The notes under the pieces: model-generated
Database searches by the model: none
Told to the model about the DNA's origin: nothing
What the model saw: the letters and a program-made list of their open reading frames with translations, nothing else
Position numbers and translations under genes: made by a program
Assembly (NCBI GenBank): GCA_020137815.1
Contig: CM035358.1
Span: 434,001 to 498,000 of the forward strand
Direction: 5' to 3'
Origin: Hormiphora californensis
Lineage: Eukaryota; Animalia; Ctenophora
Length of the DNA: 64,000 nt
Shown here: positions 218 to 52,488 of the stretch, in pieces
How positions within the stretch are numbered: position 1 is the stretch's first letter
How the letters are laid out: each line of letters starts with the position of its first letter

Positions 218-322
218 CGTTGCATTGAGACCAGCACGCGTCTTTGTAACATCCATAGGTGCAGGCTGTCGCTCCGTCACACGGGAACTCAGATGGGGCC
301 CAGGCACACTCCCAGAGAGATT
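218..322 (-). CDS. Internal exon of a Cys-rich protein (SLWECAWAPSEFPCDGATACTYGCYKDACWSQCN); gene continues off the left edge
   Basis: On the minus strand: acceptor CTCTTTCTTCCTAG, 105-nt open phase-1/phase-1 exon, donor GTAAGC; six Cys. Confidence 0.65.
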
Positions 323-584
323 CTAGGAAGAAAGAGTGGGGTAAGTGGGCTCCCAGAGAGAGATTCTAGGAAGAAAGAGTGGGGTTAGTGGGCTCCCAGA
401 GTGAGATTCTAGGAAGAAAGAGTGGGGTTAGTGGGCTCCCAGAGTGAGATTCTAGGAAGAAAGAGTGGGGTTAGTGGGCTCCCAGAGTGAGATTCTAGGA
501 AGAAAGAGTGGGGTTAGTGGGCTCCCAGAGTGAGATTCTAGGAAGAAAGAGTGGGGTTAGTGGGCTCCCAGAGTGAGATTCTAG
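309..584. repeat. 43-bp tandem repeat, ~6.5 copies, duplicating a splice acceptor
   Basis: Unit CTCCCAGAGTGAGATTCTAGGAAGAAAGAGTGGGGTTAGTGGG starts at 309, 350, 393, 436, 479, 522 and ~565. Confidence 0.95.
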
Positions 585-1270
585 CGAAAGTAGTTACAAT
601 GCAGGAGGCTTCCAGGTAGGAGTCTGATCCCAGGGAGATTCAAAGGAAGGGGTCAGAACAAAAGGTGGTGAGATGGACATGGGGGGGTTCCCATGGTATA
701 CTTTGGTATACTTTGGCACTTTCCACAACTTTTTCAGCGATTTTCCATATACCAAAGTATACCAAAGTATACCAAAATATACCAAGGTATACCAAAGTAT
801 ACCATAAAATTTTGAAATAGGTAAAATTTAAGCGATAAGATAAAATAATTGACTAAATTTGTAAAACTACATCCTTATTTCGTTCTAAATTGGTAATATA
901 AAGCTTATTAAACTGATTTTTACGTATGTTACATCACCCGGCTAGTGCTCAAGGCTGGCCACTCAGTGGCCAGGGGTTCAATTCCCGGTTGAGGCAATTT
1001 TTGAAAATATTTTAGAGACTTTACCAAATACTTTTTCTTGACTTTTAAAAACGTTTTTTATCGCACTCAAATGAGTCCCAATGTGTCAAACCCCAGTTTT
1101 GTGACTCATCATTTCACAGGCAAAATAAGTTTCCTCGATTCTATGAAATTAGCCAATTTAGCCTAGTTAACCTCAAGTTTATGAGTTAAGAAAGTTTATA
1201 CAAACTGTTTTAAAGCCTTAATTATTGTAAATTAACACTTTAAAGTACGTAAAGCTATTAAAAAGATATG

Positions 1271-4200
1271 GGTAATATACCAATTCTTGGTGTTCGAAGA
1301 AAATAGCGCTAATTAGCGGTTTTAATAGCGCTAATTAGCGCTAATTAGCGCTAATTAGCGATAGCGCTATTTATCGATAGCGCTAATAGCGCTAATAATA
1401 GCGCTATTTCACAAAATAGCGCTATTTTTGACCGCTAATTAGCGCTAATTAGCGATCAAAAATAGCGGTAATTAGCGGTAGCGCTATTTTAGCGCTTTTT
1501 GTAACCGCTAATCGGGCAATTTATCTAAAAAAATAGCGCTATTAACACTTACAAAAATAGCGCTAATTAGCGCTAATTAGCGCTATTAACATTCTTAATT
1601 CATTTTGTTCGAACCGCTAATTAGCGCTATTTCCAATTTCATCAAAATATAGAAAACGCTATGATTGGATAATGTATGTCACGTGACAAAAATCCTGTCA
1701 TGTGATGAAAAATAGCGCTAATTAGCGCTATTTTTATAATCGCTAATTAGCGCTATTATCAACTTAAACGTTTATTATTTTGTTAATAGCGCTAGTTAGC
1801 GCTAATTAGCGCTATTAATATTTGCAAATAGCGCTAATTAGCGCTAATTAGCGCTAATAAGCGCTAACTAGCGCTATTTGCATATTATTAATAGCGCTAA
1901 TTAGCGCTAATTAGCGCTATTATCAACTTGAACGTTTACTATTTTGTTAATAGCGCTAATTAGCGCTAATTAGCGCTATTAATGTTATGCAAATAGCGCT
2001 AGTTAGCGCTTATTAGCGCTAATTAGCGCTAATTAGCGCTATTTGGAAAATATTAATAGCGCTAATTAGCGCTAATTAGCGCTATTATCAACTTAAACAG
2101 TGATTATTTTAATAATAACGCTAATAAGCGCTATTATCAACTTAAACGTTTATTATTTTATTAATAGCGCTAATTAGCGCTAATTAGCGCTATTAATATT
2201 TTGCAAGTAGCGCTTGTTAGCGCTTGTTAGCGCTAATAAGCGCTAATTAGCGCTATTTGGAAAATATTAATAGCGCTTATTAGCGCTAATTAGCACTATT
2301 ATCAACTTAAACGTTTATTATTTTATTAATAGCGCTAATAAGCGCTAATTAGCGCTATTAATATTTTGCAAATAGTGCAAGTTAGCGCTTATTAGCGCTA
2401 ACTAGCGCTAATTAGCGCTATTTGGAAAATATTAATAGCGCTAATTAAAGCTAATTAGCGCTATTATCAACTTAAACATTGATTATTTTATTAATAGCGC
2501 TAATAAGCGCTATTAATATTTTGCTAATAAGCGCTAATTAGCGCTATTTGCATATTATAAATAGCGCTAATTAGCGCTTATTAGCGATATTATCAACTTA
2601 AACATTTACTATTTTATTAATAGCGCTAATTAGCGCTATTTGGAAAATATTAATAGCGTTTATTAGCGCTAATTAGCACTATTATCAACTTAAACGTTTA
2701 TTATTTTATTAATAGCGCTAATAAGCGCTAATTAGCGCTATTAATATTTTGCAAATAGTGCTAGTTAGCGCTTATTATAATAAGCTATAGCGCTAATAAG
2801 CGCTAATTAGCGCTATTTGGAAAATATTAATAGCGCTAATTAGCGCTTATTAGCGCTATTAATAAAATAATAAACGTTTAAGTTGATAATAGCACTAATT
2901 AGCGCTAATTAGCGCTATTAATATTTTGCAAATAGCGCTAATTAGCGCTAATTAGCGCTAATTAGCGCTTATTGGCGCTATTTTTAAAATATTAATAGCG
3001 CTAATTAGCGCTTATTAGCGCTATTAATAAAATAGTTAACGTTTAAGTTGATAATAGCGCTAATTAGCGCTAATTAGCGATATTAATATTTTGCAAATAG
3101 CGCTAATTAGCGCTAATAAGTGCTAACTAGCGCTATTTTTAAAATATTAATAGCGCTAATTAGCGCTAAATAGCGCTATTAATAATATGGAAATAGCGCT
3201 AACTAGCGCTATTTGCAAAATATTAATAGCGCTATTTAGCGCTTATTAGCGCTATTAATAAAATAGTAAACGTTGAAGTTGATAATAGCGCTAATTAGCG
3301 CTAATTAGCGCTATTAATATTTTGCAAATAGCGCTGATTAGCGCTTATTAGCGCTTATAAGTGCTAACTAGCGCTATTTTTAAAATATTAATAGCGCTAA
3401 TTAGCGCTTATTGGCGCTATTAATAAAATAGTAAACGTTTAAGTTGGTAATAGCGCTAATTAGCGCTAATTAGCGCTATTAATAATATGGAAATAGCGCT
3501 AATTAGCGCTTATTAGCGCTAATTAGCGCTAACTAGCGCTATTAGCAAAATATTAATAGCGCTAATTAGCGCTTATTAGCGCTATTAATAAAATAGTAAA
3601 CGTTTAAGTTGATAATAGCGCTAATTAGCGCTAAATAGCGCTATTAATAATATGGAAATAGCGCTTATTAGCGCTTATTAGCGCTAATTAGCGCTAACTA
3701 GCGCTATTTGCAAAATATTAATAGCGCTATTTAGCGCTTATTAGCGCTATTAATAAAATAGTTAACGTTTAAGTTGATAATAGCGCTAATTAGCGCTAAT
3801 TAGCGCTATTAATATTTTGCAAATAGCGCTAATTAGCGCTTATTAGCGCTAATAAGCGCTAACTAGCGCTATTTTTAAAATATTAATAGCGCTAATTAGC
3901 GCTTATTAGCGCTATTAATAAAATAGTTAACGTTTAAGTTGATAATAGCGCTAATTAGCGCTAATTAGCGCTATTAATAATATGGAAATAGCGCTAATTA
4001 GCGCTTATTAGCGCTTATTAGCGCTAACTAGCGCTATTAGCAAAATATTAATAGCGCTAATTAGCGCTTATTAGCGCTATTAATAAAATAGTAAACGTTT
4101 AAGTTGATAATAGCGCTAATTAGCGCTAAATAGCGCTATTAATAATATGGAAATAGCGCTTATTAGCGCTTATTAGCGCTAATTAGCGCTAACTAGCGCT

Positions 4201-5684
4201 ATTAGCAAAATATTAATAGCGCTAATTAGCGCTTATTAGCGCTATTAATAAAATAGTAAACGTTTAAGTTGATAATAGCGCTAATTAGCGCTAATTAGCG
4301 ATATTAATATTTTGCAAATAGCGCTAATTAGCGCTTATTAGCGCTAATAAGTGCTAACTAGCGCTATTTTTAAAATATTAATAGCGCTAATTAGCGCTTA
4401 TTAGCACTATTAATAAAATAGTAAACGTTTAAGTTGATAATAGCGCTAATTAGCGCTAATTAGCGCTATTAATAATATGGAAATAGCGCTAATTAGCGCT
4501 TATTAGCGCTAATTAGCGCTAACTAGCGCTATTAGCAAAATATTAATAGCGCTAATTAGCGCTTATTAGCGCTATTAATAAAATAGTTATCGTTTAAGTT
4601 GATAATAGCACTAATTAGCGCTAATTAGCGCTATTAATATTTTGCAAATAGCGCTAATTAGCGCTATTTTTAAATTGTCTATGGCGCTGATCAGCGCTAT
4701 TAACAAAATATACATTCATTATTTTGTTAAATGCGCTAAATAGCGCTAATTAGCGCTATTAACATTTTGCAAATAGCGCTAGTTAGCGCTTATTAGCGCT
4801 AATAAGCGCTAATCAGCGCTATTTGCAAAATATTAATAGCGCTAATTAGCGCTTATTAGCGCTATTATCAACTTAAACGTTAACTATTCTATTAATAGCG
4901 CTAATAAGCGCTAATTAGCGCTATTAATATTTTGCAAATAGCGCTAACTAGCGCTAATTATCGCTAATAAGCGCTAACTAGCGCTATTTGCAAATTATTA
5001 ATAGCGCTTATTAGCGCTAATTAGCGCTATTAACAAAGTAATATACATATATTGTGTTAATAGCGCTAATTAGCGCTATTTACAAATTGTTGATAGCGCT
5101 AATTAGCGCTAATTAGCGCTATTTAGCGCTTATTAGCGCTAGTTAGCGGTATTTTCATATTGTTAATAGCGCTAATTAGCGCTAATTAGCGCTATTTTGT
5201 AAATAAAAATAGCTAATCTTTAAGAAATGGCGCTAATTAGCGGTTACAGATTTTGACCAATCATAAGGATTTATTTAATCACGTGATCAACGCCAACCAA
5301 TCATGGCTTAGATACGTCAAATAGCGATGTCTCTTAAATAGCGCTATTTCAAAATTTTTAGGACCGCTATTTGAATAGCGGTGTTATCAAATTTGAAATT
5401 AATACAAAATTTAGAACCGCTATTTTTCTACAAAAATAGCGCTATTTTTAAGTGCAAAAAGCGCTAAAATAGCGCTACCGCTAATTACCGCTATTTGTGA
5501 CCGCTAATTAGCGCTAATTAGCGGTCACAAATAGCGCTATTTTATAAAATAGCGCTATTATTAGCGCTTCTAACACTTTTTATAAATATCGAAATCTTAG
5601 ATAGCGCTAATTAGCGCTAATTAGCGCTCTTAAAATCGCTAATTAGCGCTATTTTCTTCGAACACCAAGAATTGGTATATTACC
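1271..5684. mobile_element. Nested non-autonomous Merlin-like foldback element filled with satellite
   Basis: TIR GGTAATATACCAATTCTTGGTGTTCGAAGAAAATAGCGC... perfect for >45 bp and imperfect for several hundred. 8-bp TSD AAGATATG (1263-1270 and 5685-5692). GG termini plus 8-bp TSD fit Merlin. Confidence 0.85.
1303..5652. repeat. Palindromic TAGCGCTAAT 10-bp satellite with 165-bp higher-order unit
   Basis: Hundreds of TAGCGCTA palindromes. Marker CGTTTAAGTTG recurs at 3271, 3436, 3601, 3766, 3931, 4096, 4261, 4426 and 4591 (exact 165-bp period) and is inverted at ~1750-2700 and ~4865. Confidence 0.95.
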
Positions 5685-6118
5685 AAGATATGGTATACTT
5701 TGGTATACTTTGGTACCTTCCACATATTTTTTTAGTATTTTCCATATGCCAAAGTATACCAAAGTATACCAAAGTATACCATGGGAACCCCCCCGATGGA
5801 CATACACAATGCAGAGCGAGACAGAAAAGGTCATTCATAGAACATGGGGCATAAAGTAACTTTTGAATTGAAAATGGTAAGTTAGGGCAGTCGAGAAATC
5901 ATGGCTGAGAAAATATATTATATTTGGAGATGAATGAAAATCTCAAAGCACTTGTATCTTGTATGAAGTTATCCCAATTCCCAATTTCGAAATCCACCCG
6001 AGAGCGAATAAATTGTTTTTCATGAGCGTTTACACATGTGCAAAGTGGATTAGCTTCAGTTTTGCATGCCCTCTCAGTGAATCAGGTCCACCCTAGTATA
6101 CAATTTATAATATACCAT

Positions 6119-8257
6119 CACTGCGCTGGCAAGCGCAAAGGTTGCCATTCCCCCTCCCCCCAAAAGCGCCGCCAGAAACGCAGTTATACGTTTTATGGGT
6201 GTTTTGCCTGAAAACCTAGATTTCAGAAGGTTATAGCGTGGCTCTCTTTCATCCGTTTGACTTGAAATTTGGAATGTATACCCAGCTTGCTGCTTAGGGT
6301 CTTTGATTCAAGTTTAAAATTTCAAGTCTCTATCTCATCTGGAACCGAAGTTACAGACAGGTCCCATTTGCCCTAGTCATCACTGCGCTGGCAAGCGCAA
6401 AGGTTGTCATTCCCCCCCCCCCCCCCCCCTCAAAAAGCGCCGCCAGAAACGCAGTTATACGTTTTATGGGTGTTTGGCTGAAAATCCAGATTTGAGAAGG
6501 CTATAGCGTGGCTCCCTTTCATCCGTTTGACTTGAAATTTGGAACTTATACCCGGCTCCGGGTCATTGACTCAAGTTTAAAATTTCAAGTTTCTATCTCA
6601 TCTGGAAGCGAAGTTACAGACACGCGCGGGTAGGAGAGACGCTTTTTGTAAACCATATTCACGCCAAACGAAAAGAGATAGAGACTTCATCTTTTCACAG
6701 CTGGTAGATCTACTGGATGTGTGTGCATTAGTCGTAGTGGGGTCCCTTTTCATCGCCAGGAACGTCCTACAGAACGTCTTAAAGTCGTCATTTTTCAGAC
6801 TCTAACCAAAATTCTTTGAGCTCAATTTACACCCTGAAGACGGATTCTAATCGAAAATCGAAGACTATATCATGGAAAGAGAATTGTCTGAACTTTCAGA
6901 AGCTATACAGTGAATTTTGAAAACCAGACGTATAAGGGTCTTAAAACGCGTCTAAAGTGTTATGACTGTTTAAAAACAGATATGATGTTATGGGTTTTCT
7001 CGCTATAGCGGACTCAAATCTCATCCAATCGATCTCAAACTTGGTCAGTATCTTCATCTAGGTGGGCCCGATAATATGACGTCATAATTTTGACGTTACA
7101 ACGTCGTGACGTCATTTTATGACGTCAAAATGACGTCAAAAATGAAAATTTCTCAATTTCACGACTCTAACCTCTCTGTACCTATTCTACTAAATCTACA
7201 TGGATAAAAAATCCCAAAAATGATGCAAATTATACCAAAACTAATTAAAATTAGTAGGCCGGAAAGGTTGCCTTACGATTTGAGCTACCTTTGGCACTGG
7301 TACACTGGTACTGAAGATAACCGAGGCATCTGTAACCTGTCTATACCCCGTGAAAGTTACGGTGCCTAAGGTAGCTCAAATCGTAAGGCAACCTTTCCGG
7401 CCTACTAATTTTAATTAGTTTTGGTATAATTCAGTGTAACACATATGTGCGCATGTACGCGCGTAGGAGAGACGCTTTTTATAAACCATATTCACGCCAA
7501 ACGAAAAGAGATAGAAACTTCTCGTTTTCACAGCTGGTAGATCTACTGGATGTGTGTGCATTAGTCGATGTGAGGTCCCTTTTCATCGCCAGGAACGTCC
7601 TACAGAACGTCTTAAAGTCGTCATTTTTCAGACTCTGACTAAAATTCTTTGAGCTCATTTTACACCCTGAAGACGGATTCTAATCAAAAATCGAAGACTA
7701 TACAATAGAAAGAGAATTGTCTGAACTTTCAGAAACTATATAGCGAATTTTCAAAACTAGACGTATAAGGGTCTTAAAACGCGTCTAAAGTGTTATGACT
7801 GTTTAAAAATAGATATGACGATATGGGTTTTTTCGCCATAGCGGACTCAAATCTCATCCAATCGATCTCAAACTTGGCCAGTATCTTCATCTAGGTAATC
7901 TCGATGATATGACGTCATCATTATGACGTCATAACGACGTGACGTCATTTTATGACGTCAAAATGAAAATTTTGCAAATTGGTGATTCCATCCTCTCCTT
8001 ACCTGTTCTACTACATCTAAATGGATAAAAAATCCCAAAAAAGAAGCAAATTATACCAAAACTAATTGAAATTAGTAGGCCGGAAAGGTTGCCCTATGAT
8101 TTGAGCTACCTTTGGCACCAGTACATTCCCTTTTGAAGATAGAAGAAGCATCGGTTATACCCTGTCTGTACCCCGTGAATGTTACGGTGGCAAAGGTAGC
8201 TCAAATCATAGGGCAACCTTTCCGGCCTACTAATTTCAATTAGTTTTGGTATAATTT
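6119..8257 (+). mobile_element. Unclassified composite repeat, A-A'-B-B', each B ending in a ~200-bp hairpin
   Basis: A at 6119-6360 and 6381-6620 (CACTGCGCTGGCAAGCGCAAAGG...). B at ~6620-7431 and ~7458-8257. Hairpins at 7228-7431 and 8048-8257. Confidence 0.75.
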
Positions 8258-8296
8258 AAGTATACTATCTTGCACGTTCCAGAATATTAAAGCGAG

Positions 8297-11911: not shown

Positions 11912-13230
11912 CGCCACCCCTCCCCAAACGATATCTAACTATCAGCCCGCCACCCCCAAACAATATCTATACTATCAGCCCGCCACCCCCAACAATATCT
12001 AACTATCAGCCCGCCACCCCCAACAATATCTAACTATCAGCCCGCCACCCCCAAACAATATCTAACTATCACCCCCCCCCCCAACAATATCTAACTATCA
12101 GCCCGCCACCCCCAACAATGTCTAACTATCAGCCCGCCACCCCCAAAATATCTAACTATCAGCCCGCCACCCCCCAACAATATCTAACTATCAGCCCGCC
12201 ACCCCCAAACAATATCTAACTATCAGCCCGCCACCCCCAAACAATATCTAACTATCAGCCCGCCACCCCCCAACAATATCTAACTATCAGCCCGCCACCC
12301 CCAAACAATATCTAACTATCAGCCCGCCACCCCAAACAATATCTAACTATCAGCCCGCCACCCCAAACGATATCTAACTATCAGCCCGCCACCCCCAACA
12401 ATATCTAACTATCAGCCCGCCACCCCCAACAATATCTAACTATCAGCCCGCCACCCCCAACAATATCTAACTATCAGCCCGCCCCCCCCAAACAATATCA
12501 TAACTGTACAGTCCCCGCCACCCCCAACAATATCCTACACTATCAGCCGCCCCCCCCCCAACAGATATCTAACTATCACAGCCCCGCCCCCCCCACCGCT
12601 CTCTAACATATATAAAACCTCTCCCGCCCGCCACCCCCAACAATATCTAACCACTATCATGCTCCGCCCCCCCAAACAATATCTAACATTCATCATCCCG
12701 CCACCCCCAAACGAATATCTAACTATCAGCCCGCCACCCAACGATATCTAACTATCAGCCCGCCACCCTCCAAACAATATCTAACTATCAGCCCTGCACC
12801 CACCCCCAACAGATATCTAACTATCAGACCCGCCCACCCCCAAACAATATCTAACTTATCAGCCCGCCACCCCCAACAATATCTAACTATCAGCCCGCCA
12901 CCCCCAACAATTCTACTACAGCCCCCCCCCCAACGATATCTAACTACAGCCCGCCCCCCCCCCAAACATATCTAACTACGCCCACCCCCCCCAACAATAT
13001 CAATTTATACCCCCCCCCCAAAAAATTTAACATCACCCCCCCCCACCCCCAAACAATATCAACATCCCCCCCCCCCCCCCAACAATATCTAACATCAGCC
13101 CCCCACCCCCCCAAACAATATCTAACTATCCCCCGCCCCACCCCCAAAAATACAACTATCACCCCGCCCCCCCCCAAACAATATCTAACTATCAGCCCCC
13201 CCCCCAAAAAATATCAACATCGCCCCCACC
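11912..13230. repeat. ~31-bp minisatellite (AACAATATCTAACTATCAGCCCGCCACCCCC), ~40 copies
   Basis: Tandem units, clean to ~12480 and then progressively error-laden. Opposite strand is G-rich. Confidence 0.95.
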
Positions 13231-16200
13231 CTATGCCGGGGGGGGGGGGGGTGCCGAAATAAAACTATCATAAGTCTCTTCTGGCGGGGCGCCTGGCGTA
13301 CTCGAGTTTGGGCTTTTCCAAATGATCAGGTCCAGGCACTCAGAATAGGGGACCGCTTTTAGGGTCGTCCTACATGTCCCCCCCCCCCCTTTTAAATGCC
13401 CCCCTGTTTTTTGGAAAACATCTCGCTTTTTATAAGGGCATGCTGACAAAGGAAGCGAAAAGAGGGGAAAAAGGGGTAGAGAGAAGAAAAAAAAGAGATA
13501 GATAAATGAGAGAGAGAGAAAAGAAGGGAGGAGAAGGAAAAAGGGAAGAAGGGAACCCCAACTCTAAAGAGGGGAGGTTCTTCCTGTTTGGTTCCGTGCT
13601 TTCTTCTATCGTCCCCTTATATTTCCTCTCTCGGTAAACTTTTTTTTTATTTTACCGAAAAATTATCTTTTTCCCTTGTTTAGCATTTCTACCAGTGCCC
13701 AACTTCATAGTAGTACAGTGAGGTTTCTGCATCGAAGTGGTAGTGCCGCTTCCTTTCATAACATGGGGTTTGGCTATAATTTCTTACCGGTCAGTTTGGA
13801 CCAAGGATATAATGAAAATTTTAAAAAAAAAACATAGGTGCTCGAATTTCTAAACTCTTTTTTTTACAAATCTTTACAAAGTTTGTCGTCGCGGGGCGTG
13901 GTTAGAGAAGGCCCCCAGTGTTTTTTGGGGGGCCGGGACTGTGACGTTAATTTTCATATTTTTAAAAAGTCTTCCATTTTCAAAAGGGGCTGTCTAAAAT
14001 CAAATGGCACAAAGGGGGGGGGGGGCTTCAGAAGTGTACCAATTTGTTTCTTAATAAGTAGAATTATGTAAATTGTAAATTGAGGCACGACCACGGATTG
14101 AGTGATGATACCCCAAAAAGGGCATGGGCTTTAAAAAGGGGGGAATAAGGAAAAATACTAAAGAAAGGGAAAAAAAAAGGGAGAAAGAAAGAAAGGAAGA
14201 AAGAGAAAGAAGAGAAGAAGAAAACCCCATATGATTTGATGCCTACATATATTAACAAAAAATTGTATGCCCCCCCCCCTAAATTTGGTCTTTTTTCAAT
14301 AAATTGGAAATCGTTATTCAGAAAATTTAAAAGAAATTGTATTAAAAAATACAGATATTTTTGAAGGTTTGGCCAGACAGCGGCCACTGCTAACAAACTC
14401 CCTAATAAAAGGGGATAATTATCGATAATCAAACAAATGTTTTTACTTTGCTAAGTTCCAGCCCCAAAAAAAATTTTAAATTTAAAAACTTAAAAAAACA
14501 TCTGGTATGACTGGCACAACGTCTACTATAAAACCCTTTACATACTGTACCCCATCTCTCTCCTATCTATCTCTGTGTCCCCTGTTATACAGTCCCCAAA
14601 ATTACAATTGAGCTAGGCTTTTACTCGAAAAAACCACCAGTGCTGAGCTTAACAGGGGAAAACTTTTAGTTTCCCGTCACCTGCACCCCCAACGGGACCT
14701 TTGTTTCCCCCCCTCTATCCTCTCTATAATATTGAGGCCCCCCCCTTTTTTTTTCTCTCTCCTTCTCTCCCCTCTCCCCTTTTAATTAGCCTCCTATTTT
14801 ATCCATCAGTTTTGCAAGTTTTTGGGTTTTTTTTTTTATTTTTATTTAGTTTATGACCTCTTTTTAAACTTTTAAATTTACTGTTTGTAAAATGTTACCT
14901 ATATCAAATTTCAAAATTTTTTTTTTGTACCTCACTTGTTCATAATTAAAAAAATGAATTTAGCACTGCTAAATTTTGTTTTCTATAAGAAGGGAGAGAA
15001 AAAGAGGAGAGAGGAGAGAGAGAAAGAAGAAAAAAGGAAGAATTCTTCCTTTCTTTTCCCCCATTCTCTTCCCCCAAAATTTTTTTCCCCCCGCTCCCTC
15101 TCCCCCCTCTGTCCCCGCCTTTCCCCTTTTTTCCCCCCCTTTTTGTTCCCCAATCATTTTCCCCCTTTTCTCCCCCAACCCCCCTTTTGTCATTTCCAAA
15201 ATATATACGTAAAAACCTGGGGTTTAATCCATCCGTTGGGAAAAGGGAGGAAAAGGGGGGTTTTTGGGGGGGGGGGGGTCCCCTCTCCGGCCCTCCCCTT
15301 CCCCCTTTTCCCTTTTTCCCCCTTTTCTTTTTGCCCCCTTTTTCCCCCCCCTATTTAAAATTTTTTTTAAACTCCCCTTTTTCTCCAAACCCCTTGGTTT
15401 AGAAGGGTAACAAACAAAAAAAGGGGGAAAATTCACATGTAAGGGGTAAAAGGTCCTAGTTATTACTGTGTCACTGACTTTTTTTTCCGCGGAGACCTGC
15501 TCGTTCGTTCCGAATTTTTTTCTTTAAAAATGCTGTATTTTTTTTTGAGTTGCCATTTTTAATTTTTCAAAAACTGCCAGTTGGGTTTTTAAACCTTTTA
15601 AAACTTGGGATAAAAATTTTTTTTTTAAAAAAAACCCACTATTAAGTTGATTAAAAATTTTCAAATTAGTCAACTGGGGTAAAATGGTTCCCCCTCCCGG
15701 GGGAAAAAGGTTCACCCTGGACCAATAAAAAACAGCCTCCCAATAACCCCCAAAAAAAAACTTTTAAATGGGCCAGCCCACGGGGTAAAAAAGGTCCCAG
15801 AAAAAGAAAAAACATGGAAACCCTTTTACCCCTGCTCTAACAACCCACACGTAAAAAATCGACATGCTAATTGGGGTGGACCATTTTACCCCGGGGGGCA
15901 AAATTTTCCCCCAAAAAACCCTACCCCCCTTTTTGTTTTATTTTAACTATTAAATAAAAATTTCAGATTTTTAAAAAAATTCTCGTCTGAAAAAAAAATT
16001 TTTTGGGTCCTATTAATTTTTTCTTCTTCTTATAAATTATTTTTTTAAAAACCCAAAAAGTTAGAAAGTGTGCCATTTTACCCCTTTCTACCCTATGAAG
16101 AAAAAAAAAAGATACAAGAAGGTCAAGGGGTTTCGGCCAAAAGAGAGGAGAACAGAGACAGAGAGAGAGAAAGGGAAAAGAGAAAAAAGAAGAAAGAGAA

Positions 16201-18371: not shown

Positions 18372-20395
18372 TAAGTGGAGCCGAACAAAGCAACCCATAC
18401 TCCAAAAATGCCCGAGAAAAAAAAAATCCAAGAAAAAATGATAGTCTAAAGGGGTTTTGAAATGGAAAAATTGGCTGTCAGTATGACGGAACGGGGTTTT
18501 TGGAAAACCAGTGGGTTCACAAAAAAATACCGGATAAAACCCCCCCAAATCAAAAAGGGAGACAATTAAACAATTTTGTGCCCGTTTTAGGATTAGAAAA
18601 AACAAAAAAAACTGTAAAAAATTGATACTCGTTTTTACATGTGTGACAACACATATATCCAACTTTGAGAACTTGAGGGACGGTCTCCCCAACACGGTTA
18701 AAAAATGACATTCCTGTTAGCAGGATTTTAAAAACGGGTTTTTTGGGCGGTTGAAACACAAAATGTGAAACAACAATTGAGTTTTTAAAAGCAGTCATCA
18801 AAGAGAGCATTACCCGTTTGTGCAAAATGAGGAAAAGGAAAGATTGTCTTATGGAAAATGAAGGATGCGGAGACTTTGCACCCTTTTGTACTATTTGAGA
18901 TTTTTGGAGAAATGGGATTTTAAACAAAAATGAATGAAGCACCCACTGAATCCTATGAGGGAAAGGGGTGAGAAGGCACGAAATTGGAGACTGAAACAAC
19001 CGATAAACGGTGAAACCTTTATGACGTCCTACAAGCAGGAGAGGCACGGGGATAGTTTCTGAAGGTCCCCGGTCGGGGAGGGCAGTGAGAGAAACGGGAA
19101 AACAGGGGGGGGGGAAAGGGAAAGTCGCAGCAGAAGAGGGTCGCCCCCAAACATGGAAAAAAGATAGGACCGGGGGACCAACCACCGTAACAGGAGCGCG
19201 GCGATACAATCCGAAGAGATTCTACACCACACCGACGGAAAAAAGGAAAGGTCGGAAATCAGATAGGTGCTACAAGCGGGAAGAGGGGGGGTACATGGCC
19301 AGAAAAAGCTACTCGAATAGGCGGAACCATTTAAAATAGTGGGGTGCACCAAAGGTTTTTTTGCGGATTTGAAAGGGAACCAAAAGGGGAGGAAAAAAAT
19401 GATGTGACAGGACATTTAAAAACACCATTTAAATTTTTTGGACACGGGCTGGGATCTCTCATCAGTACACGCACTGTCTACCAACGGGGAAAAAAGCAAA
19501 ATTTGCCCCAGAAACAATAATTTGGGGGTTACAAAAACAAAATCTTTGCCAAAAGGGAGATTCTTAAAAAAGCTTTTAGCAAAAACGGAAAATACGCAAC
19601 GTTTTTGTCAGGAAACCTGGCTGAGACATCCTAGCGGGAAGACTGAGGGAAATTGATATGAGAATTGATGTGAAAGAAAACAAAAAACTTTACCAATACG
19701 GGGGGAAAAATTGGCAAGGAACTTTCCCTTTGCCCTTTCCACAAATTGCAAAATCAAAGGTAAGAGAACGAAAAATTCCCGGAAACAGCGTCACACAATA
19801 TCAGCGAGTGAAATCCTAAATCTGGAAAAAATATGAAGGGGTATTTTTTGGAAAAAGGGAATAACAAATCTTGGGGGGTTTGGCATTGAAAATTCTAGGC
19901 GCATAGCAAGGGTAATGAGATACTGGTTTGGTACAATCCTTCCCAACGTCAAACATGCACAGAAATAGGGTCATTGGCAACATGGCCATGGGTTCGTTTC
20001 AGACAAAATGTTTTAAAAAAATCAAAGAGTTTTCTTTAAAAATTTCCCGATTACCCGAAGCTGAACTGAAAGGTGACACGCAAATAGGGACAAATGGGGG
20101 AATTTGAAAAATGTTCGATCAGCTTGGCTGAAAACACTCCAAATTGATTAAGAACACAAAAAACCCAAAATTAAAAAACATTCTAAAAACTATTCCCTTT
20201 TTTTTCAAAACACCAATTTTTAAATAGGAAAGCCCCTTTTTTGAGGCATCCTTTAAAATCAAGACAGATGTAGAAGGGGAACCCGTAGGGAAGTTCCATA
20301 TGATCAAAAAACGTAGGAAAAAAGAGCTATGACATTGGCAAGTTGGACAAATTGAAGATTTCAAAAGGGCCAGGGATCGGAACCCCTCCGGTCTT

Positions 20396-21514
20396 TTGGT
20401 GAAAAAGCCAGGAACGAAAAAATACCGAGTTGTGCAAGACCTGAGACAGCTCAACAAAGAGAGCATCCCCGAAACATTCCCATTACCAAATATAAACACG
20501 GTGATGAACAACATGGATGAATGTGAGTGGCTAACCTCATTTGACTTCACAAAAGGTTTCAATCAGATAAAACTTGACGAGGAAAGCAAACCACTAACAG
20601 CTTTCACTTATAAAAACACTCGCTATCAATGGACGAGGCTCATTATGGGTCACTGTTCTAGCAGTAGTATATTTGCCAAATCTATGGCAGAATTGTTCCA
20701 AAAAGTTCCTTTCCAAGCGCTAATTTGCTTCTTGGATGATGTGCTAATAGGAAGCAACACTGTTGATACACATCTAGACAGGCTGGAATTCGTTTTAGCA
20801 AGACTGTCATTTGGAGGATTGAAAATTAGTCCTTCTAAAACACAATTGTTCAGAAAACAAGTCAAATTTCTCGGACACATCATGAACAAAAATGGCATTT
20901 CTATTGATCCAGCTCGTGTGGATGCAATAAAGAAACTACAATTGCCAAAGTCTGTGAAAGAACTACAAAAATTTCTGGGAGCTGTAAATTATAACAGAGC
21001 CTATATAAAAGATTACAGCAAAATAGCAACCCCACTATACGACATGCTACAGAAGAAACGCAAATTTGAGTGGAATTCTACTTCCACAAAAGCATTTGAA
21101 AATTTGAAAAATGCACTTGGAAAAACACCGGTCTTGGTGATTCCAAACTACCAGCACCCTGACCAAAATTATGAGTTGACAATTGACTCCAGTAAAATCG
21201 GCCATGGGGCCACACTAAACCAAGTATTACATGGGAAAAAGAGGACCATAGCCTATTGGTCAAAATCGGTACCTGTGCATCAGAGAAAATTTGGGGCAAC
21301 TAGACTAGAATTTCTTGGTCTATGTCATGCTCTAAAGCACTTCCGGATGTACCTGATGGGTACAAAAAGGTTCAAGGTGCTAACTGATTGTAAAGCTCTG
21401 CTAAACTTGAAAACCATTTTCAAGAAAAGAGTGCTACATTCACAGAAAAAAGCGAATTGGAAGAATACAATTTTAAACATAAGCACATTGCTGGGAATTG
21501 TAACATGGGTATGA
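20396..21514 (+). CDS. pol: Gypsy pol fragment: reverse transcriptase and RNase H
   Basis: YRVVQDLRQLN, FPLPNI, DFTKGFNQI, FLDDVLI, FLGH, LTIDSS, LEFLGL, FKVLTDCKAL motifs. Confidence 0.95.
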   Translation: MVKKPGTKKYRVVQDLRQLNKESIPETFPLPNINTVMNNMDECEWLTSFDFTKGFNQIKLDEESKPLTAFTYKNTRYQWTRLIMGHCSSSSIFAKSMAELFQKVPFQALICFLDDVLIGSNTVDTHLDRLEFVLARLSFGGLKISPSKTQLFRKQVKFLGHIMNKNGISIDPARVDAIKKLQLPKSVKELQKFLGAVNYNRAYIKDYSKIATPLYDMLQKKRKFEWNSTSTKAFENLKNALGKTPVLVIPNYQHPDQNYELTIDSSKIGHGATLNQVLHGKKRTIAYWSKSVPVHQRKFGATRLEFLGLCHALKHFRMYLMGTKRFKVLTDCKALLNLKTIFKKRVLHSQKKANWKNTILNISTLLGIVTWV

Positions 21515-35579: not shown

Positions 35580-37023
35580 TCAAACATTAAGTTTCGGTGC
35601 CTCTACCTCCAGATGTTCCCTATACTTCTCCAGAGCAGGTCTCAACTCCTCCTTCACAAACTTTTCAACTTGTTCCGGGCACCGTCCTATAAACTTACTG
35701 GGATCCAAAATGTCATCCAAACTCTCCTTCACAGGGGCGAAGAACTCGTCTCTAGATACTCGCTCTATCATATCATTAACCCCACCCTCCTCCTTCACAT
35801 TCTTCCCTGCTTCCTGAGCCAGCACTCTCAATCTCTCGTGACACTCTTGTCTGTCAGCCCCAGATTTAACCATCGCCATCAGGATATTCTCTGTGGCCAT
35901 GAAGGGGAGCTCTTCAGAGATCCGTTTAGCAATAACACGAGGGTAGACCACCATCCCACTAACAATGTTTAGAGTGGTGTTGAGCAGGATATCAGCTGTT
36001 AGGAAGGCCTCTGCAATCACCACACGCCTGTTGGCTGAATCGTCCAGGGTTCGTTCGAACCATTGGTTAGCGTGAGTGTGAGCAGCAGAGAGAGGCAAGG
36101 AGAGGAGGTGCCGAGCTAAGGAGCAGCACCTCTCAGATCTCATCGGGTTTCGTTTGTAAGGCATTGCACTGCTACCAATCTGGTTCTTTTCAAATGGTTC
36201 CTCTAGCTCTTTTAGACTGGCTAACAGTCTCAAATCGGTGCAGAACTTATTGACTGAGGTTCCAATACCAGCAACAGCATTCAGGATCATTGCATCAATT
36301 TTCCGGGAGTAAGTTTGGCCGGTAATGGTGAATTTCGAGGAAAACCCAGCTTTCTCGGAAACCAGTTTGTCTAAATCCTCTACCTTGTCATGTTCTCCAT
36401 TGAAGAGCTCCAGAAAACTGGCCTGGGTTCCAGTTGTACCCTTCACGCCCCTGAACCTCATTCCCTCAATCTCACGTTCCAGTGCTGCGAGGTCCAATAA
36501 GAAATCTTGAGCCCAGATACAAGAACGCTTGCCAACTGTTGTGATTTGAGCCGGCTGGAAGTGAGTGAAACCAAGTTGAGGGATTGACTTGTTGGAGACT
36601 GCGAAACTGGCGAATGCATTACAAACCCTAGCTAACTTTGAGCACAGCAACTTCAATCCATCTCTCATCACAATAAGATCAGTGTTGTCCCCAACAAAGC
36701 AGCTGGTAGCCCCTAGATGTATAATTGGAGCTGCAGACTGGACATGCTGCTCCAAAAGTGTGCACGTGGGCCATGACATCATGACGACGAGATTTCTCCT
36801 CAGCGGCAGCTCGAGCCCAGTCAATATTAGATATATTTTCTCGCATTTCTGATATCTGCTCTTTTGTGATTTCTAGACCAAGTTCCATTTCCGATTCTGC
36901 AAGGTCAGCCCAGAGTTTTCGCCAAGTCTCGAACTTCTTCCGATCGGAAAAGATGTAACTCATCTCCTCCGACGCATAGCGATCAGTCAGAGGGCTACGG
37001 TACTTTGATTGGGGTTCTGCCAT
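35580..37023 (-). CDS. ADSL: Adenylosuccinate lyase, intronless, one apparent frameshift near 36740
   Basis: [71 protein letters not shown]. Two overlapping ORFs join at ...ACP/SAAPIIH. Confidence 0.95.
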
Positions 37024-37115: not shown

Positions 37116-38460
37116 TTGGCATACGTTGCAGGCCCCTTATAATATAATATAAGGGGCCTGGAGGGAATACCGCGCTAGGGGGGAATACATAATCAATCAT
37201 ATCTCCAGTTCCAGATAAGGTACAGAAATCGTTTTGGTAGCGTTGGAAAGAGGAAGATAACAGCTTTCAAATGCAACCGGTTTCAGGTTTCTATCTTATC
37301 AGGAACAGGAGATATGAACCAAACTCCGCAAAATCGAGTGCGGTAAAATCAAAATTTGAATGAAATTTTAAAAAAGGTGTCCCTGCAAGAATCTGTGACG
37401 TCACTTTTTGAAAACAACCCATCTTTCAACGGCTATTGCTCAGCCTTCTTAAGTCCAATTAACTTCTCTCAAAAACAGCAAGGTAGATAATCGTCAGATC
37501 TAACAACTGGTGAAAGAATCAAGTCAAACGGACTTCAGGAGCCAAAGTTATAAGCACCGCCGTTTTTTCGACCGCAAAGTTATCTTCGACCCAGCCGGGA
37601 TCAGGCCAAACGCGCGCGCGGCATTCCCTCCAGTCCCCTCGTTGCGGGGGTGCGCGCATGAGGGGGCTGCAGCGCATTCCAAAAAAAAAACTGAACTTTT
37701 TGAGCTGAATTTTTGTTTCAATCCCTTAAAATTAACTAGCGCGCATTTATACCGTTGCATGAGATGGAAGGCGCGAAACATACACGCATAATGCGCTGCA
37801 TTTTCACGCGCAATAACGAATTGGATTTTGAAATTCCCAAAATTCTTAGTGGAAGCTCTTACGGTAATTCCCACGCCCCGTGGGAAAGTTTTTGACCGTG
37901 GGAAAGTTTTCAAACCGTGGGAAAAGAGAGATTCATACGATAACTTTAAAAAAATAATTATTTTTTTAATGTTATAGTCGAATTTTTTAATCAAGGGACA
38001 GGGGGCCGCGCATTTACAAAGTCTTTTTTGCGCGTGCTAAATGTTTTTGCTCATATCTCCTCTTCCTGATATAATAAGATAAAGACTTGATCTTGGTTGC
38101 GTTGAAAAGGTCTTAAAATTATCTTTCCAACGCTTCCGGGTTCAAGTCTTAAGATTGCCAGGAACTTGATCTCGATTGTCACGCGCAAATACAACGCCGC
38201 GCGACCTCTCTGAATGCGCGGCCCCTGTCCCTTGATTAAAAAATTCGACTTTATTGTATATATCTCTCTTTTCCCACGGTTCGAAAATTTTCCCACGGTC
38301 AAAAACTTTCCCACGGGGCGTGGAAATACCGTAAGAGCTTCCACTATCTGGGATTTCAAAGTTTGAGATTTTTGCCAAAAACGGAAAACCGCAAAATATT
38401 GGAGAAAAGGGGTCATTGTTGCGGGCTGCGGCTGAACCACCAAGCCAGCATAAGGCATAA
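37116..38460. mobile_element. Composite non-autonomous DNA-transposon-like region with internal inverted repeat
   Basis: Arms ~37830-38013 and ~38213-38360 are inverted. Segments are shared with 45484-45730 and 63300-63480 (AAAATGCACGCG, CACGCGCAAATACAACGCCGCG, AAGGGGCCTGCARCGTATGCCAA). Confidence 0.65.
37868..38315. promoter_or_regulatory. Cluster of seven CGTGGGAA (CSL/Su(H)/RBPJ consensus) sites
   Basis: 37868(-), 37879, 37897, 37916, 38271(-), 38290(-), 38308(-). Function unproven. Confidence 0.45.
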
Positions 38461-49887: not shown

Positions 49888-52488
49888 ATGTCTGATAAAG
49901 AACCTATTCTGAATCCCTCAGAGTTTGAGATAGATTTCCAGGAGTTTAGTAACACACTGCTACCCGATACCGCTACAGTTCCTCTTGGTGGTGGGGCACC
50001 CCCTCCCTACCAACCCCCTGGTGAGAGGGTGACCTGGACATCATGTCATTTTGAATTGTATTAGTTTCCAGTTTCTCATTTTCAATATTTTCCATTCCCA
50101 GGCACATCGTCTGATTACAAGATAGCAGTTGACTCTGATACTGAGTTGGACTCAACGAACCTGCTGAGATCAGAGGATGGCTCTACACCAGCTACCAGTG
50201 CATTCTGGTCTCTTGAGTTTTACCAGCAGTTCTTCAATGTAAACGATGAAATTGTAAGTTTCTATTTGTATCTCCTCAATTTTATCATGTCCCTTCATTT
50301 CTAGTTTGATCTCCACCCCTGTCTTCTTTCCAACTGTAACACACCCCCCACTCCAGGTTCTAGACAGGTTACTTCACGCCTGCCTACCTCTACCCTCTAA
50401 CGACTTTATGGGTAAACTCAGGCCCTCCCCTGATATCTATGGACCTCTGTGGGTTTGTATAACCCTGGTATTCTCAACTGCCATCAGTGGTAACATGGCT
50501 GATTTCTTTGCTAGTATGGGGGATGATACGGAGTGGACTTACGACTTCAAAAAAGGTAGGTGCCTACACTCTATTTCATTGTTTAACTCTGTCAGAGCAT
50601 TGACCTGATCCTATCCTCATTTCTCGGAGCGTGCGAGAACTGTGGCCAGAGCATTGACAGTTCATGACAGAACTCCATTTTATGCCCTAAACATTCCATC
50701 AAACTCACATCTTCTTCTTCCCAGTAACGATAGCAGCAACAGTGATATTCCTGTATGTGACAACTGTCCCTGCCTCCCTATCCGGATATCTCTGGTGGAG
50801 AAAGAGTAACACTGAACTAAAGCTAGTGGAGAGTCTATCACTGTACGGCTACTCTCTTACTGTCTTCATTCCCGCTTCTGTAAGTCAAGTTGTTTGTCCC
50901 GTGGATTGGTATGATGTTATGTTGCCAAGAATAAATGGTAATTACCCATCAAGAATCATTCTTTCTCCCACAGATACTGCTGTGTATAAATCACGATTGG
51001 ATCCGGTGGATTCTTGTTCTAGTGATTATAGGAACTAGTGGTAAGTTATATACAGATAGAGACATGCCCCCGTTTAAAACAACACAAAATAACACAGTCA
51101 CGTACTGGCACCATTTAGTGATAATAACAGTAAATCGAATATCACGCACAAAACAAAGCGATTACAAATCGAATCACGCACTGACGCCACTTTGTTATAT
51201 CGAGCATAAATACAATGTCACGCACTGACTACAGTTACACATTGAGTCACGTACCTCACGTCACAATGTAACATAGTCAGGACCACTATTGGTGCGCGGT
51301 CGTGCCCACGGAAGGAGTGCTTGGATCATCTTGAAACCGGTTTTAAGTTCACTAATGTATACCCAAAAGGGTCTGTAGCCATTTGGGTGATGTTCTGACA
51401 ATCCAATCACGAGTTATGACCGAAAAACAGTGAAAAAAGACGTTTTAAAGTGACAAAAAGGAGGATCTGAACACAGCCCTTATATGAAGGGCTGGGGCTT
51501 TGAAACTTCTTGTGTGGACAGAGAATTGTCCAAATTTGCAGTGTCAACTTTCAGATAGTTTCTATCTTTTGTAGTTATCTAATTACAGTCGTTTAAACAT
51601 GTGAGAAGTTGCTAAAGGGGCCTATAATACTGCTTGTGAAGTGATCACTTGACGAGATTTGCCCAATTAGACAGCGGATTAAAGCATACAAGCGGTAAGA
51701 GCAAGCAATATGAGACGGAAGTAGTACCTAATCGCCCTGTTTTGCAGGGTCATACAGATCGTCTCACATGTTTAAACGACTCTAATTAGATAACTACAAA
51801 AGATAGAAACTATCTGAAAGTTGACACTGCAAATTTGGACAATTCTCTGTCCACACAAGAAGTTTCAAAGCCCCAGCCCTTCATATAAGGGCTGTAATCA
51901 GATCCTCCTTTTTGTCACTTTAAAACGTCTTTTTTCACTGTTTTTCGGTCATAACTCCTGATTGGATTGTCAGAACATCACCCAAATGGCTACAGACACT
52001 TTTGGGTATACATTAGTGAACTTAAAACCGGTTTCAAGATGATCCAAGCACTCCTTCCGTGGGCACGACCGCGCACCAATAGTGGTCCTGACTAACACAA
52101 CGGCGGGCTGCCTGTGTAAATACAACATTATTTCTCTTCTGCACATTACTAATACATCTTGTTCTGCAGGTGCTGTGTTGACCCTCACTATATGGAAGTT
52201 GCTGGCAGGAGAGCCACGTCAAATGGCTCTTATTATAACAGCAGTACTGGCTGCACTACATGTAGCCCTTATCCTACTGTTCAAGGTGACCTGACTTATA
52301 CATGTTATATTGAGTTGTTCAAACACTGATGAGCCAGACTCATAACAATAGAAAAATGTATATTCATTAGATATTATTAGATGGTTATTTTCATGGTTTA
52401 GGATTCTAACACCACCTCTTCTTTTCAGATGTATTTCTTCGCCCAAACGTCAAAAGCACCTACTCCAGCACCAGTGCCAACAAGATGA
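49888..52488 (+). CDS. YIPF1: Yip1-domain family protein, YIPF1/YIPF2-like
   Basis: FWSLEFYQQFFNV, PDIYGPLWVCITLVFSTAISGN, YDFKK, SLYGYSLTVFIPAS, LFK-MYFF. Seven exons. Confidence 0.9.
51274..52094. mobile_element. Academ-type non-autonomous foldback element in YIPF intron 5
   Basis: TAGTCAGGACC...GGTCCTGACTA, ~330-bp nearly identical TIRs, 3-bp TSD ACA. TAG..CTA ends with a 3-4-bp TSD fit Academ. Confidence 0.85.

What the first reader, a model, noticed from the sequence alone, without database searches (positions are those of the whole stretch)
1750..5200. Satellite with nucleosome-like geometry: 10-bp AT/GC phasing inside an exact 165-bp unit, in inverted blocks
Seen: TAGCGCTAAT alternates TAATTA and GCGC each half helical turn. 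The higher-order unit repeats every 165 bp exactly from 3271 to 4591, orientation flips near 2800 and 4800, and CpGs are largely undecayed. Known: ~10-bp WW/SS periodicity favours nucleosome positioning, 165 bp is chromatosome-sized, and many centromeric satellites are 150-180 bp. Inferred: a satellite being born inside a transposon that could phase nucleosomes, extrude cruciforms or yield hairpin RNA.
Basis: partly seen in the sequence, partly recalled or inferred. Interest (0 to 1): 0.75.

Follow-up and report, generated by a model that had tools for sequence, protein, structure and literature searches.

The report
Comb-jelly foldback transposon with palindromic repeats
The 165-base repeat is real, but it is the inside of a 4.4-kb gene-less jumping-DNA element, nested in a second one and missing from this site in another sample of the species, likely in a comb jelly; its 10-base motif likely marks transposase docking sites, and its nucleosome-like spacing is no better than a 10-base motif gives by chance, so it is a new member of a known kind.

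Summary
Observation mostly confirmed: a 165-bp unit repeats exactly 8 times (3272-4592) with a 495-bp higher order, strong 10.3-bp WW/SS periodicity and two orientation changes. Public contigs end exactly at both inner ends, show the outer element without the inner one, and one contig (X5) carries the empty chromosomal site. The host is likely a ctenophore. The arrays run mirror-wise from each end, which is the known foldback design (Muta1, Tm1, Galileo, Tetris); Mutator or Merlin transposase cannot be told apart. Nucleosome reading: geometry fits, but 33-49% of random spacer lengths phase as well, no single dyad wins, and 5 of 17 unit steps are not 165. CpG is the commonest core mutation; low decay fits youth. 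No chromatin or RNA data. The scan noted this design before in other genomes. New member of a known kind.

The parts
672..680 (+). left copy of the 9-bp target site duplication of the outer element (GATGGACAT)
   Evidence: single copy in the X5 empty-site contig
681..1270 (.). outer non-autonomous element, left TIR (G7-TTCCCATGG end, 10-bp TATACCAAAG repeats, 681-~805) and interior
   Evidence: first 36 bp identical to the right end; TRF 748-804; depth step at 681
1263..1270 (+). left copy of the 8-bp target site duplication of the inner element (AAGATATG)
   Evidence: outer element without the inner one seen as a loose end in X13
1271..1501 (+). inner element left TIR, GGTAATATACC end, subterminal TAGCGCTAAT motifs
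   Evidence: 81 of 83 and 210 of 232 columns identical to the right TIR; contigs of X5 and X13 begin at 1271
1502..1754 (+). left subterminal domain, loosely alignable to 5190-5453, with CCAAT-like and CACGTG motifs
   Evidence: alignment
1755..2814 (-). left repeat arm: 8 linkers in minus orientation, unit steps 49-165 bp
2815..2857 (.). junction of the two mirror arms, inside a palindromic core
   Evidence: last minus-type spacer at 2815, first plus linker at 2858
2858..4665 (+). right repeat arm: 11 linkers in plus orientation; exact 165-bp block 3272-4592 with 495-bp higher order; each unit a ~140-bp palindrome plus linker
4666..5200 (.). older, irregular units: two near-symmetric linkers around one inverted linker (4864-4896)
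5201..5453 (-). right subterminal domain
   Evidence: multi-copy single contigs in X1, X4, X11
5454..5684 (-). inner element right TIR
   Evidence: X5 contig ends at 5684
5685..5692 (+). right copy of the 8-bp target site duplication
5693..5794 (.). outer element right TIR
5795..5803 (+). right copy of the 9-bp target site duplication
   Evidence: flank contigs of X1, X4, X5 stop aligning at 5795

Best explanation
The array is the interior of a 4,414-bp gene-less DNA element with 231-bp inverted ends and an 8-bp target duplication, nested in a 692-bp element with a 9-bp duplication; it is likely a young foldback-type transposon of a comb jelly, likely moved by a Mutator-like (or Merlin) transposase encoded elsewhere, and its 10-bp palindromic motif likely serves as repeated transposase docking sites. 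Shown: ends, duplications, many copies, empty sites, mirror orientation of the two arms, dyad in each unit. Inferred growth path: slippage makes runs of 3 and 5 motifs; a fold-back copying step makes the ~140-bp palindrome; unequal exchange makes the 165-bp and then the 495-bp repeat. Because all but the 33-bp linker is self-complementary, exchanges between cores would join or invert arms without a scar, which explains the flips. The nucleosome-like look is likely a by-product of a 10-bp GC/AT motif; nucleosomes may well form there with a fixed rotational setting, but selection for it is not indicated.
For: TIRs 81/83 and 210/232; both TSDs exact (chance at a fixed place 4e-5 and 4e-6). A 419-bp contig of depth 215.2 in X5 lies on 560-680 with its letters 294-414 and on 5795-6096 with its letters 1-302: the 9-letter overlap is the target once, so the 5.1-kb composite is absent there (same contig inferred from equal length and depth). 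X4 (49 letters) and X1 (21 letters) flank contigs also run on unlike the element. X13 loose end before 693 joins the outer interior to its right TIR, the site without the inner element. Contigs begin at 1271 and end at 5684. Single contigs inside the element are about 8-30 times deeper than the flank (1725 and 2914 vs 215; 3706 vs 222; 3225 vs 100-112; rough). The motif already fills the TIRs. 19 of 20 oriented linkers point the same way relative to the TIR of their arm. Same design in Muta1 (8-9 bp TSD, 12-bp subterminal repeats; 10 of 12 long-TIR Aedes MULE families have 9-15 bp repeats; PMC5225508), Tm1 (PMC3169594), Tetris (PMC4079207); binding to TIR repeats shown for Galileo (PMC3688188). 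The outer element also uses a 10-bp repeat.
Against: No transposase or autonomous partner was found, so the superfamily and the binding role are untested; GG ends, 8-9 bp TSD and internal tandem repeats (one of 163 bp) also describe Merlin, which has 4 preserved ORFs in Pleurobrachia bachei (PMC8101967). Only one TSD per element could be read. Motifs in the non-tandem arms do tend to lie on one helical face (right arm R 0.68 at 10.4 bp, 0.5% of nulls; left arm 7%; 3 sub-stretches 5%, 26%, 64%), which fits protein docking but equally nucleosome wrapping. No indel was listed within the units in 4 of 4 runs, so spacer lengths look stable across copies. Array length in other copies is unknown.
Confidence: 0.85

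Rival explanations
1. The unit has been shaped by selection to position one nucleosome per 165 bp (dyad-symmetric ~140-bp core, 10.3-bp WW/SS phase, short linker), for silencing, for transposition in chromatin or as a seed for centromeric chromatin.
For: Dyad in 9 of 9 units with GC at the centre and motifs at 0, 10, 20, 43, 53, 63 bp from it; 165 bp is 16 turns of 10.31 bp; crude rotational score 46-58 against background best-per-165-bp mean 16-17, maximum 29-39; helical phase also in the right arm; the 165-bp form is the one amplified on both arms; nucleosome-sized monomers with WW periodicity are typical of centromeric satellites (PMC8997354); no centromeric repeat was identified in Hormiphora (PMC8527503).
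Against: 33% of 1,394 spacer pairs and 49% of 41 linker lengths phase as well; 15 of 34 inner spacer lengths match or beat 23 bp; several dyads per unit score within 10% and the best one changes with the period assumed, so no translational phasing is predicted; a pure 10-mer run scores higher at 10.1-10.3; 5 of 17 unit steps differ; the site is unfixed; my score is a crude cosine, not a trained model.
Confidence: 0.08
2. A pre-existing or emerging free satellite that was captured by, or has escaped from, the element (Tetris or miDNA4 path).
For: Higher-order repeat and 2-6 differences among units of one type show recent amplification; summed contig depth on the linker is 14-88 times that at interior place 5355 in organism A; such escapes are known (PMC4079207, PMC12628747).
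Against: The motif is native to the TIRs, so capture is unlikely; summed depth is inflated by overlapping contigs and even taken at face value caps the linker at about 460, 940 and 4,050 flank-equivalents (X5, X4, X1), roughly 0.1-0.7 Mb, which tens of elements with ~20 units could largely supply; in organism B the ratio is about 3. The tool warns that these depths are no copy number, and hairpin DNA may be under-sequenced.
Confidence: 0.05
3. The inverted blocks or the array length are assembly artefacts (fold-back chimeric reads).
For: Other repeats of the window look noisily polished (11922-13231); no record spans the array.
Against: Left and right arms differ by 9-17 of 165 bases with consistent diagnostic variants; both TIRs and TSDs are intact; flanks join correctly in the empty allele; 68% of sampled words stand in X1. 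Exact unit number remains unverified.
Confidence: 0.02

Closest known systems
Mutator/foldback elements: Muta1 of Aedes aegypti (PMC5225508, passages), Tm1 of Meloidogyne (PMC3169594, passages)
   Same: 8-9 bp TSD; long TIRs made of short tandem motifs (9-15 bp); non-autonomous copies with variable repeat number, unequal between the two ends.
   Different: Here the motif is itself a palindrome, builds a ~140-bp dyad and a 165/495-bp higher order, the arms meet without a middle domain, and no transposase is known.
Tetris of Drosophila virilis (PMC4079207, passages)
   Same: Gene-less foldback element, 8-10 bp TSD, satellite-sized tandem units (220 bp) inside the inverted arms, derived from the terminal domain.
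   Different: Tetris units were shown to form free kb-size arrays; no such array is shown here. Unit here is built from a 10-bp palindrome.
Merlin superfamily (PMC8101967, passages and one supplement part)
   Same: GG ends, TIR within 24-462 bp, 8-bp TSD, internal tandem repeats (163-bp unit in Sy.k_F2; an inverted duplicated repeat region in Sy.m_F1); preserved Merlin ORFs reported in Pleurobrachia bachei.
   Different: No DDE_Tnp_IS1595 gene here; no TIR match to a Merlin could be tested.
Galileo of Drosophila buzzatii (PMC3688188, passages)
   Same: Long internally repetitive TIRs; their repeats hold extra transposase sites, the model used here.
   Different: P superfamily; binding shown there, untested here.
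Centromeric satellites with nucleosome-sized monomers (PMC8997354; bioRxiv 10.64898/2026.09.17.752431; passages)
   Same: 100-200 bp monomer, WW periodicity, dyad symmetry, higher-order repeat.
   Different: 3.4 kb, bounded by TIRs, unfixed, near a gene; no CENP-A data; two orientations.

Membership tests
Foldback-type non-autonomous TIR transposon | long terminal inverted repeats | tested here: met
   210 of 232 columns
Foldback-type non-autonomous TIR transposon | internal tandem repeats arranged as mirror arms | tested here: met
   8 minus and 11 plus linkers, one exception at 4864
Foldback-type non-autonomous TIR transposon | target site duplication and empty site | tested here: met
   8-bp and 9-bp TSDs; empty sites in X13 and X5
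Foldback-type non-autonomous TIR transposon | dispersed multiple copies | tested here: met
   contigs break at 1271 and 5684; interior contigs about 8-30 times flank depth; other loci not read
Mutator (MULE) | 8-10 bp TSD and long TIR with short subterminal repeats | tested here: met
   against PMC5225508
Mutator (MULE) | MULE transposase in a partner with the same ends | not testable with these tools
   no genome held; the ends do not recur in the window
Merlin | 5'-GG ends, TIR 24-462 bp, 8-9 bp TSD | tested here: met
   against PMC8101967
Merlin | IS1595-type transposase in a partner with the same ends | tested here: inconclusive
   0 TIR matches in the paper's supplements, but its contigs are held cut to about 400 letters
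Satellite DNA (free array) | long head-to-tail array independent of element ends | tested here: not met
   this array is 3.4 kb, in two orientations, between TIRs; other loci not readable
Centromeric satellite | nucleosome-sized monomer with WW periodicity and higher order | tested here: met
   not above chance given the motif
Centromeric satellite | CENP-A occupancy and phased nucleosomes | not testable with these tools
   no chromatin data
Known RNA family (miRNA precursor etc.) | Rfam gathering score | tested here: not met
   best 70.5 bits against 110 (MIR7526); none of the 150 listed of 291 matches reaches its threshold

The most novel reading that the evidence does not exclude
A comb-jelly transposon has evolved a natural dyad-symmetric nucleosome-positioning unit (140-bp palindrome, 16 helical turns per repeat) and spreads it as portable phased-chromatin or cruciform cassettes; amplified copies could be the still undescribed centromeric DNA of ctenophores, the sister group of other animals.
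Probability: 0.07. Interest if true: 0.72.

Novelty: new member of a known kind. Interest (0 to 1): 0.28.

Why it matters
As it stands: a clean, young, polymorphic foldback element in a lineage whose repeats are little described, with each step from a 10-bp motif to a higher-order repeat visible in one copy, and a warning that WW/SS phasing plus a nucleosome-sized unit can arise from a transposon end motif. It is also a ready natural template for nucleosome reconstitution. It would matter much more if the unit proved to position nucleosomes or bind CENP-A, since no ctenophore centromeric repeat has been identified (PMC8527503 passage; the centromere atlas has no ctenophore mention).

Tried and rejected
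Own-genome search: no genome held. Exact-pattern scans found 0 matches: TIR and triple motif in metagenome contigs, TIR in viral contigs (46), triple motif in genome contigs (47). No RNA holder listed; this says nothing on expression, so hairpin RNA is untested. Rfam: only sub-threshold generic hairpin matches; no tRNA in the window or in the T-loop-like piece of the outer element. Pfam on 22 of the window's ORFs found no transposase; shorter ORFs (160 listed) were not scanned. Merlin supplement search gave 0 matches but the contigs are cut; bioRxiv supplements were not seen. Unit length in other copies could not be read: contigs are too short, and low-depth joints (skips of 99, 282, 168; back 84) only hint at variants. 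hAT and P were set aside on recalled end consensus (YA, CA), not tested. A 9-bp reading of the inner TSD needs asymmetric ends; contigs starting at 1271 favour 8 bp. Paper searches listed no description of this family or of a ctenophore satellite; Repbase and subscription journals were not searchable. Look-up by sequence in earlier findings gave two unrelated notes.

Full report
Observation. The repeat is real. A linker marker recurs every 165 bp for 8 steps from 3272 to 4592; lag identity is 0.945 at 165 and 0.978 at 495, so there is a three-unit higher order, confirmed by two unit types (3272, 3767, 4262 differ by 4-6; 3437, 3602, 3932, 4097, 4427 by 2-6; between types 8-14). Elsewhere the steps are 231, 164, 49, 126 and 92: 12 of 17 within-block steps are 165. 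A unit holds 11 motifs spaced 10,10,23,10,10,10,10,23,10,10,39. The two 23-bp spacers are near reverse complements, so each unit is a ~140-bp palindrome (61-66 of 70 pairs in 9 of 9 units) plus a short asymmetric stretch. Only the 33-bp linker has a clear direction: 8 minus, 11 plus, then one minus between two near-symmetric ones. The first flip lies at about 2815-2857 inside a core; the second 'block' is one linker.

What surrounds it. The array lies inside an element at 1271-5684 with ends identical at 81 of 83 and 210 of 232 columns, flanked by AAGATATG on both sides. That element sits at the inner edge of the right TIR of a second element, 681-5794 (692 bp without the insert), with 36 identical terminal bases, its own 10-bp repeat and a 9-bp duplication. 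Neither motif recurs in the window.

Mobility. 20 of 22 listed runs hold part of the stretch. I laid 6 of them (X1, X4, X5, X8, X11, X13) on the two ends, not on the array. In X5 a 419-bp contig of depth 215.2 lies on 560-680 with its letters 294-414 and on 5795-6096 with its letters 1-302; the 9-letter overlap is the target site once, so the whole composite is absent there (one contig, inferred from equal length and depth). The X4 flank contig has 49 and the X1 contig 21 letters that run on unlike the element, which fits the same empty allele but was not read. In X13 a loose end joins the outer interior directly to its right TIR, the site without the inner element. Contigs begin at 1271 and end at 5684, as expected where many flanks meet one end. 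Single interior contigs are about 8-30 times deeper than the flank; the tool warns that depth is no copy number. Organism B holds both element families but little of the flank. One of the organism A runs may be the window's own source; the argument rests on X5.

Host. The 430-aa adenylosuccinate lyase frame at 35583-36872 has Mnemiopsis leidyi as its best named hit (73%, next named 67%) and a 98% EukProt hit whose id style I recall from Pleurobrachia gene models. A cydippid ctenophore is likely; earlier notes on this genome agree.

Nucleosome reading. But it follows from the motif: 33% of 1,394 spacer combinations and 49% of 41 linker lengths phase as well; 15 of 34 inner spacer lengths match or beat 23; several dyads per unit score alike. 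Against my reading, motifs in the irregular arms also tend to one helical face (0.5% of nulls on the right, 7% on the left, 5%, 26% and 64% in sub-stretches; five tests, arms not independent), and no indel was listed within units in 4 of 4 runs. One-face spacing fits a docking protein as well as histones. Hairpins are predicted (-65.8 kcal/mol DNA; -96 RNA, z -11.7), with perfect central arms of only 3-15 bp; expression is untested.

CpG. 9 of 227 cores carry a CpG transition against 2 transitions at the neighbouring G and C; these are 9 of 23 core changes, some copied by amplification. Low decay fits youth and the low methylation reported for Mnemiopsis (6.8%, PMC12221973 passage); it is no sign of protection.

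Mechanism. Shown: two nested TIR elements, TSDs, empty sites, mirror arms, dyads. Inferred: a transposase in trans binds the repeated 10-bp palindrome, as shown for Galileo's TIR repeats (PMC3688188); slippage, fold-back copying and unequal exchange built 10, 140, 165 and 495 bp levels; exchanges between self-complementary cores fused the arms and inverted one linker. A free satellite is not shown: face-value linker depth caps it at roughly 0.1-0.7 Mb (rough, inflated by overlapping contigs, possibly lowered by poor sequencing of hairpins).

Comparison. It works like the Mutator/foldback elements Muta1 and Tm1 and like Tetris. Merlin fits the ends and TSD equally and has preserved ORFs in Pleurobrachia bachei; by the Repbase rule non-autonomous elements are filed by ends and TSD, which I could not compare with a library. 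My odds: Mutator 0.5, Merlin 0.35, other 0.15. Satellites arising from such elements are reviewed in PMC12628747. Papers were seen as passages, plus one supplement search and one supplement part of PMC8101967, whose contigs are cut, so unseen supplement letters could hold the partner's ends. The scan noted the same design in two other genomes, unchecked here.

Verdict. New member of a known kind; interest 0.28. The boldest reading left open, a transposon-borne nucleosome or centromere seed, gets 0.07.

Noticed in passing
window 930-1000 (inside the outer element): A stretch with tRNA T-loop/B-box-like letters (label recalled); depth peaks there and loose ends show a related abundant family, but ARAGORN and Rfam give no tRNA.
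   Followed up: partly
window 1661-1690 and 5257-5310: Both inner arms keep an ATGATTGG and a TCACGTGA word (CCAAT-box and E-box-like; labels recalled) although the surrounding sequence has diverged.
   Followed up: no
window 35583-36872 (-): Eukaryote-type adenylosuccinate lyase in one uninterrupted 430-codon frame; used to place the host.
   Followed up: partly
window 20333-21511 (+): RT plus RNase H frame of an LTR retrotransposon.
   Followed up: no
window 51274-52094 and 37847-38346: Two more TIR elements (333-bp arms, 98.5%; 97-bp arms, 93%), both starting TAGT and apparently with 3-bp duplications (ACA, TCT); Academ-like by recall.
   Followed up: no
window 6625-8260: About 830-bp tandem duplication, each copy holding a ~205-bp palindrome (7228-7431, 8048-8257).
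   Followed up: no
window 6116 onward: Start of a very abundant repeat: many different loose ends at 6116-6117 and very high depth in 4 of 4 runs.
   Followed up: no
window 309-584, 11922-13231, 55788-57702: Minisatellites of 43, 31 and 33 bp.
   Followed up: no
PMC8101967 supplement file 3, contig AVPN01020316.1: A Pleurobrachia bachei contig begins with another 10-bp repeat followed by an end like the outer element's right end, just before a Merlin ORF; a sister family, probably inserted there, not shown to be the Merlin's own TIR.
   Followed up: no
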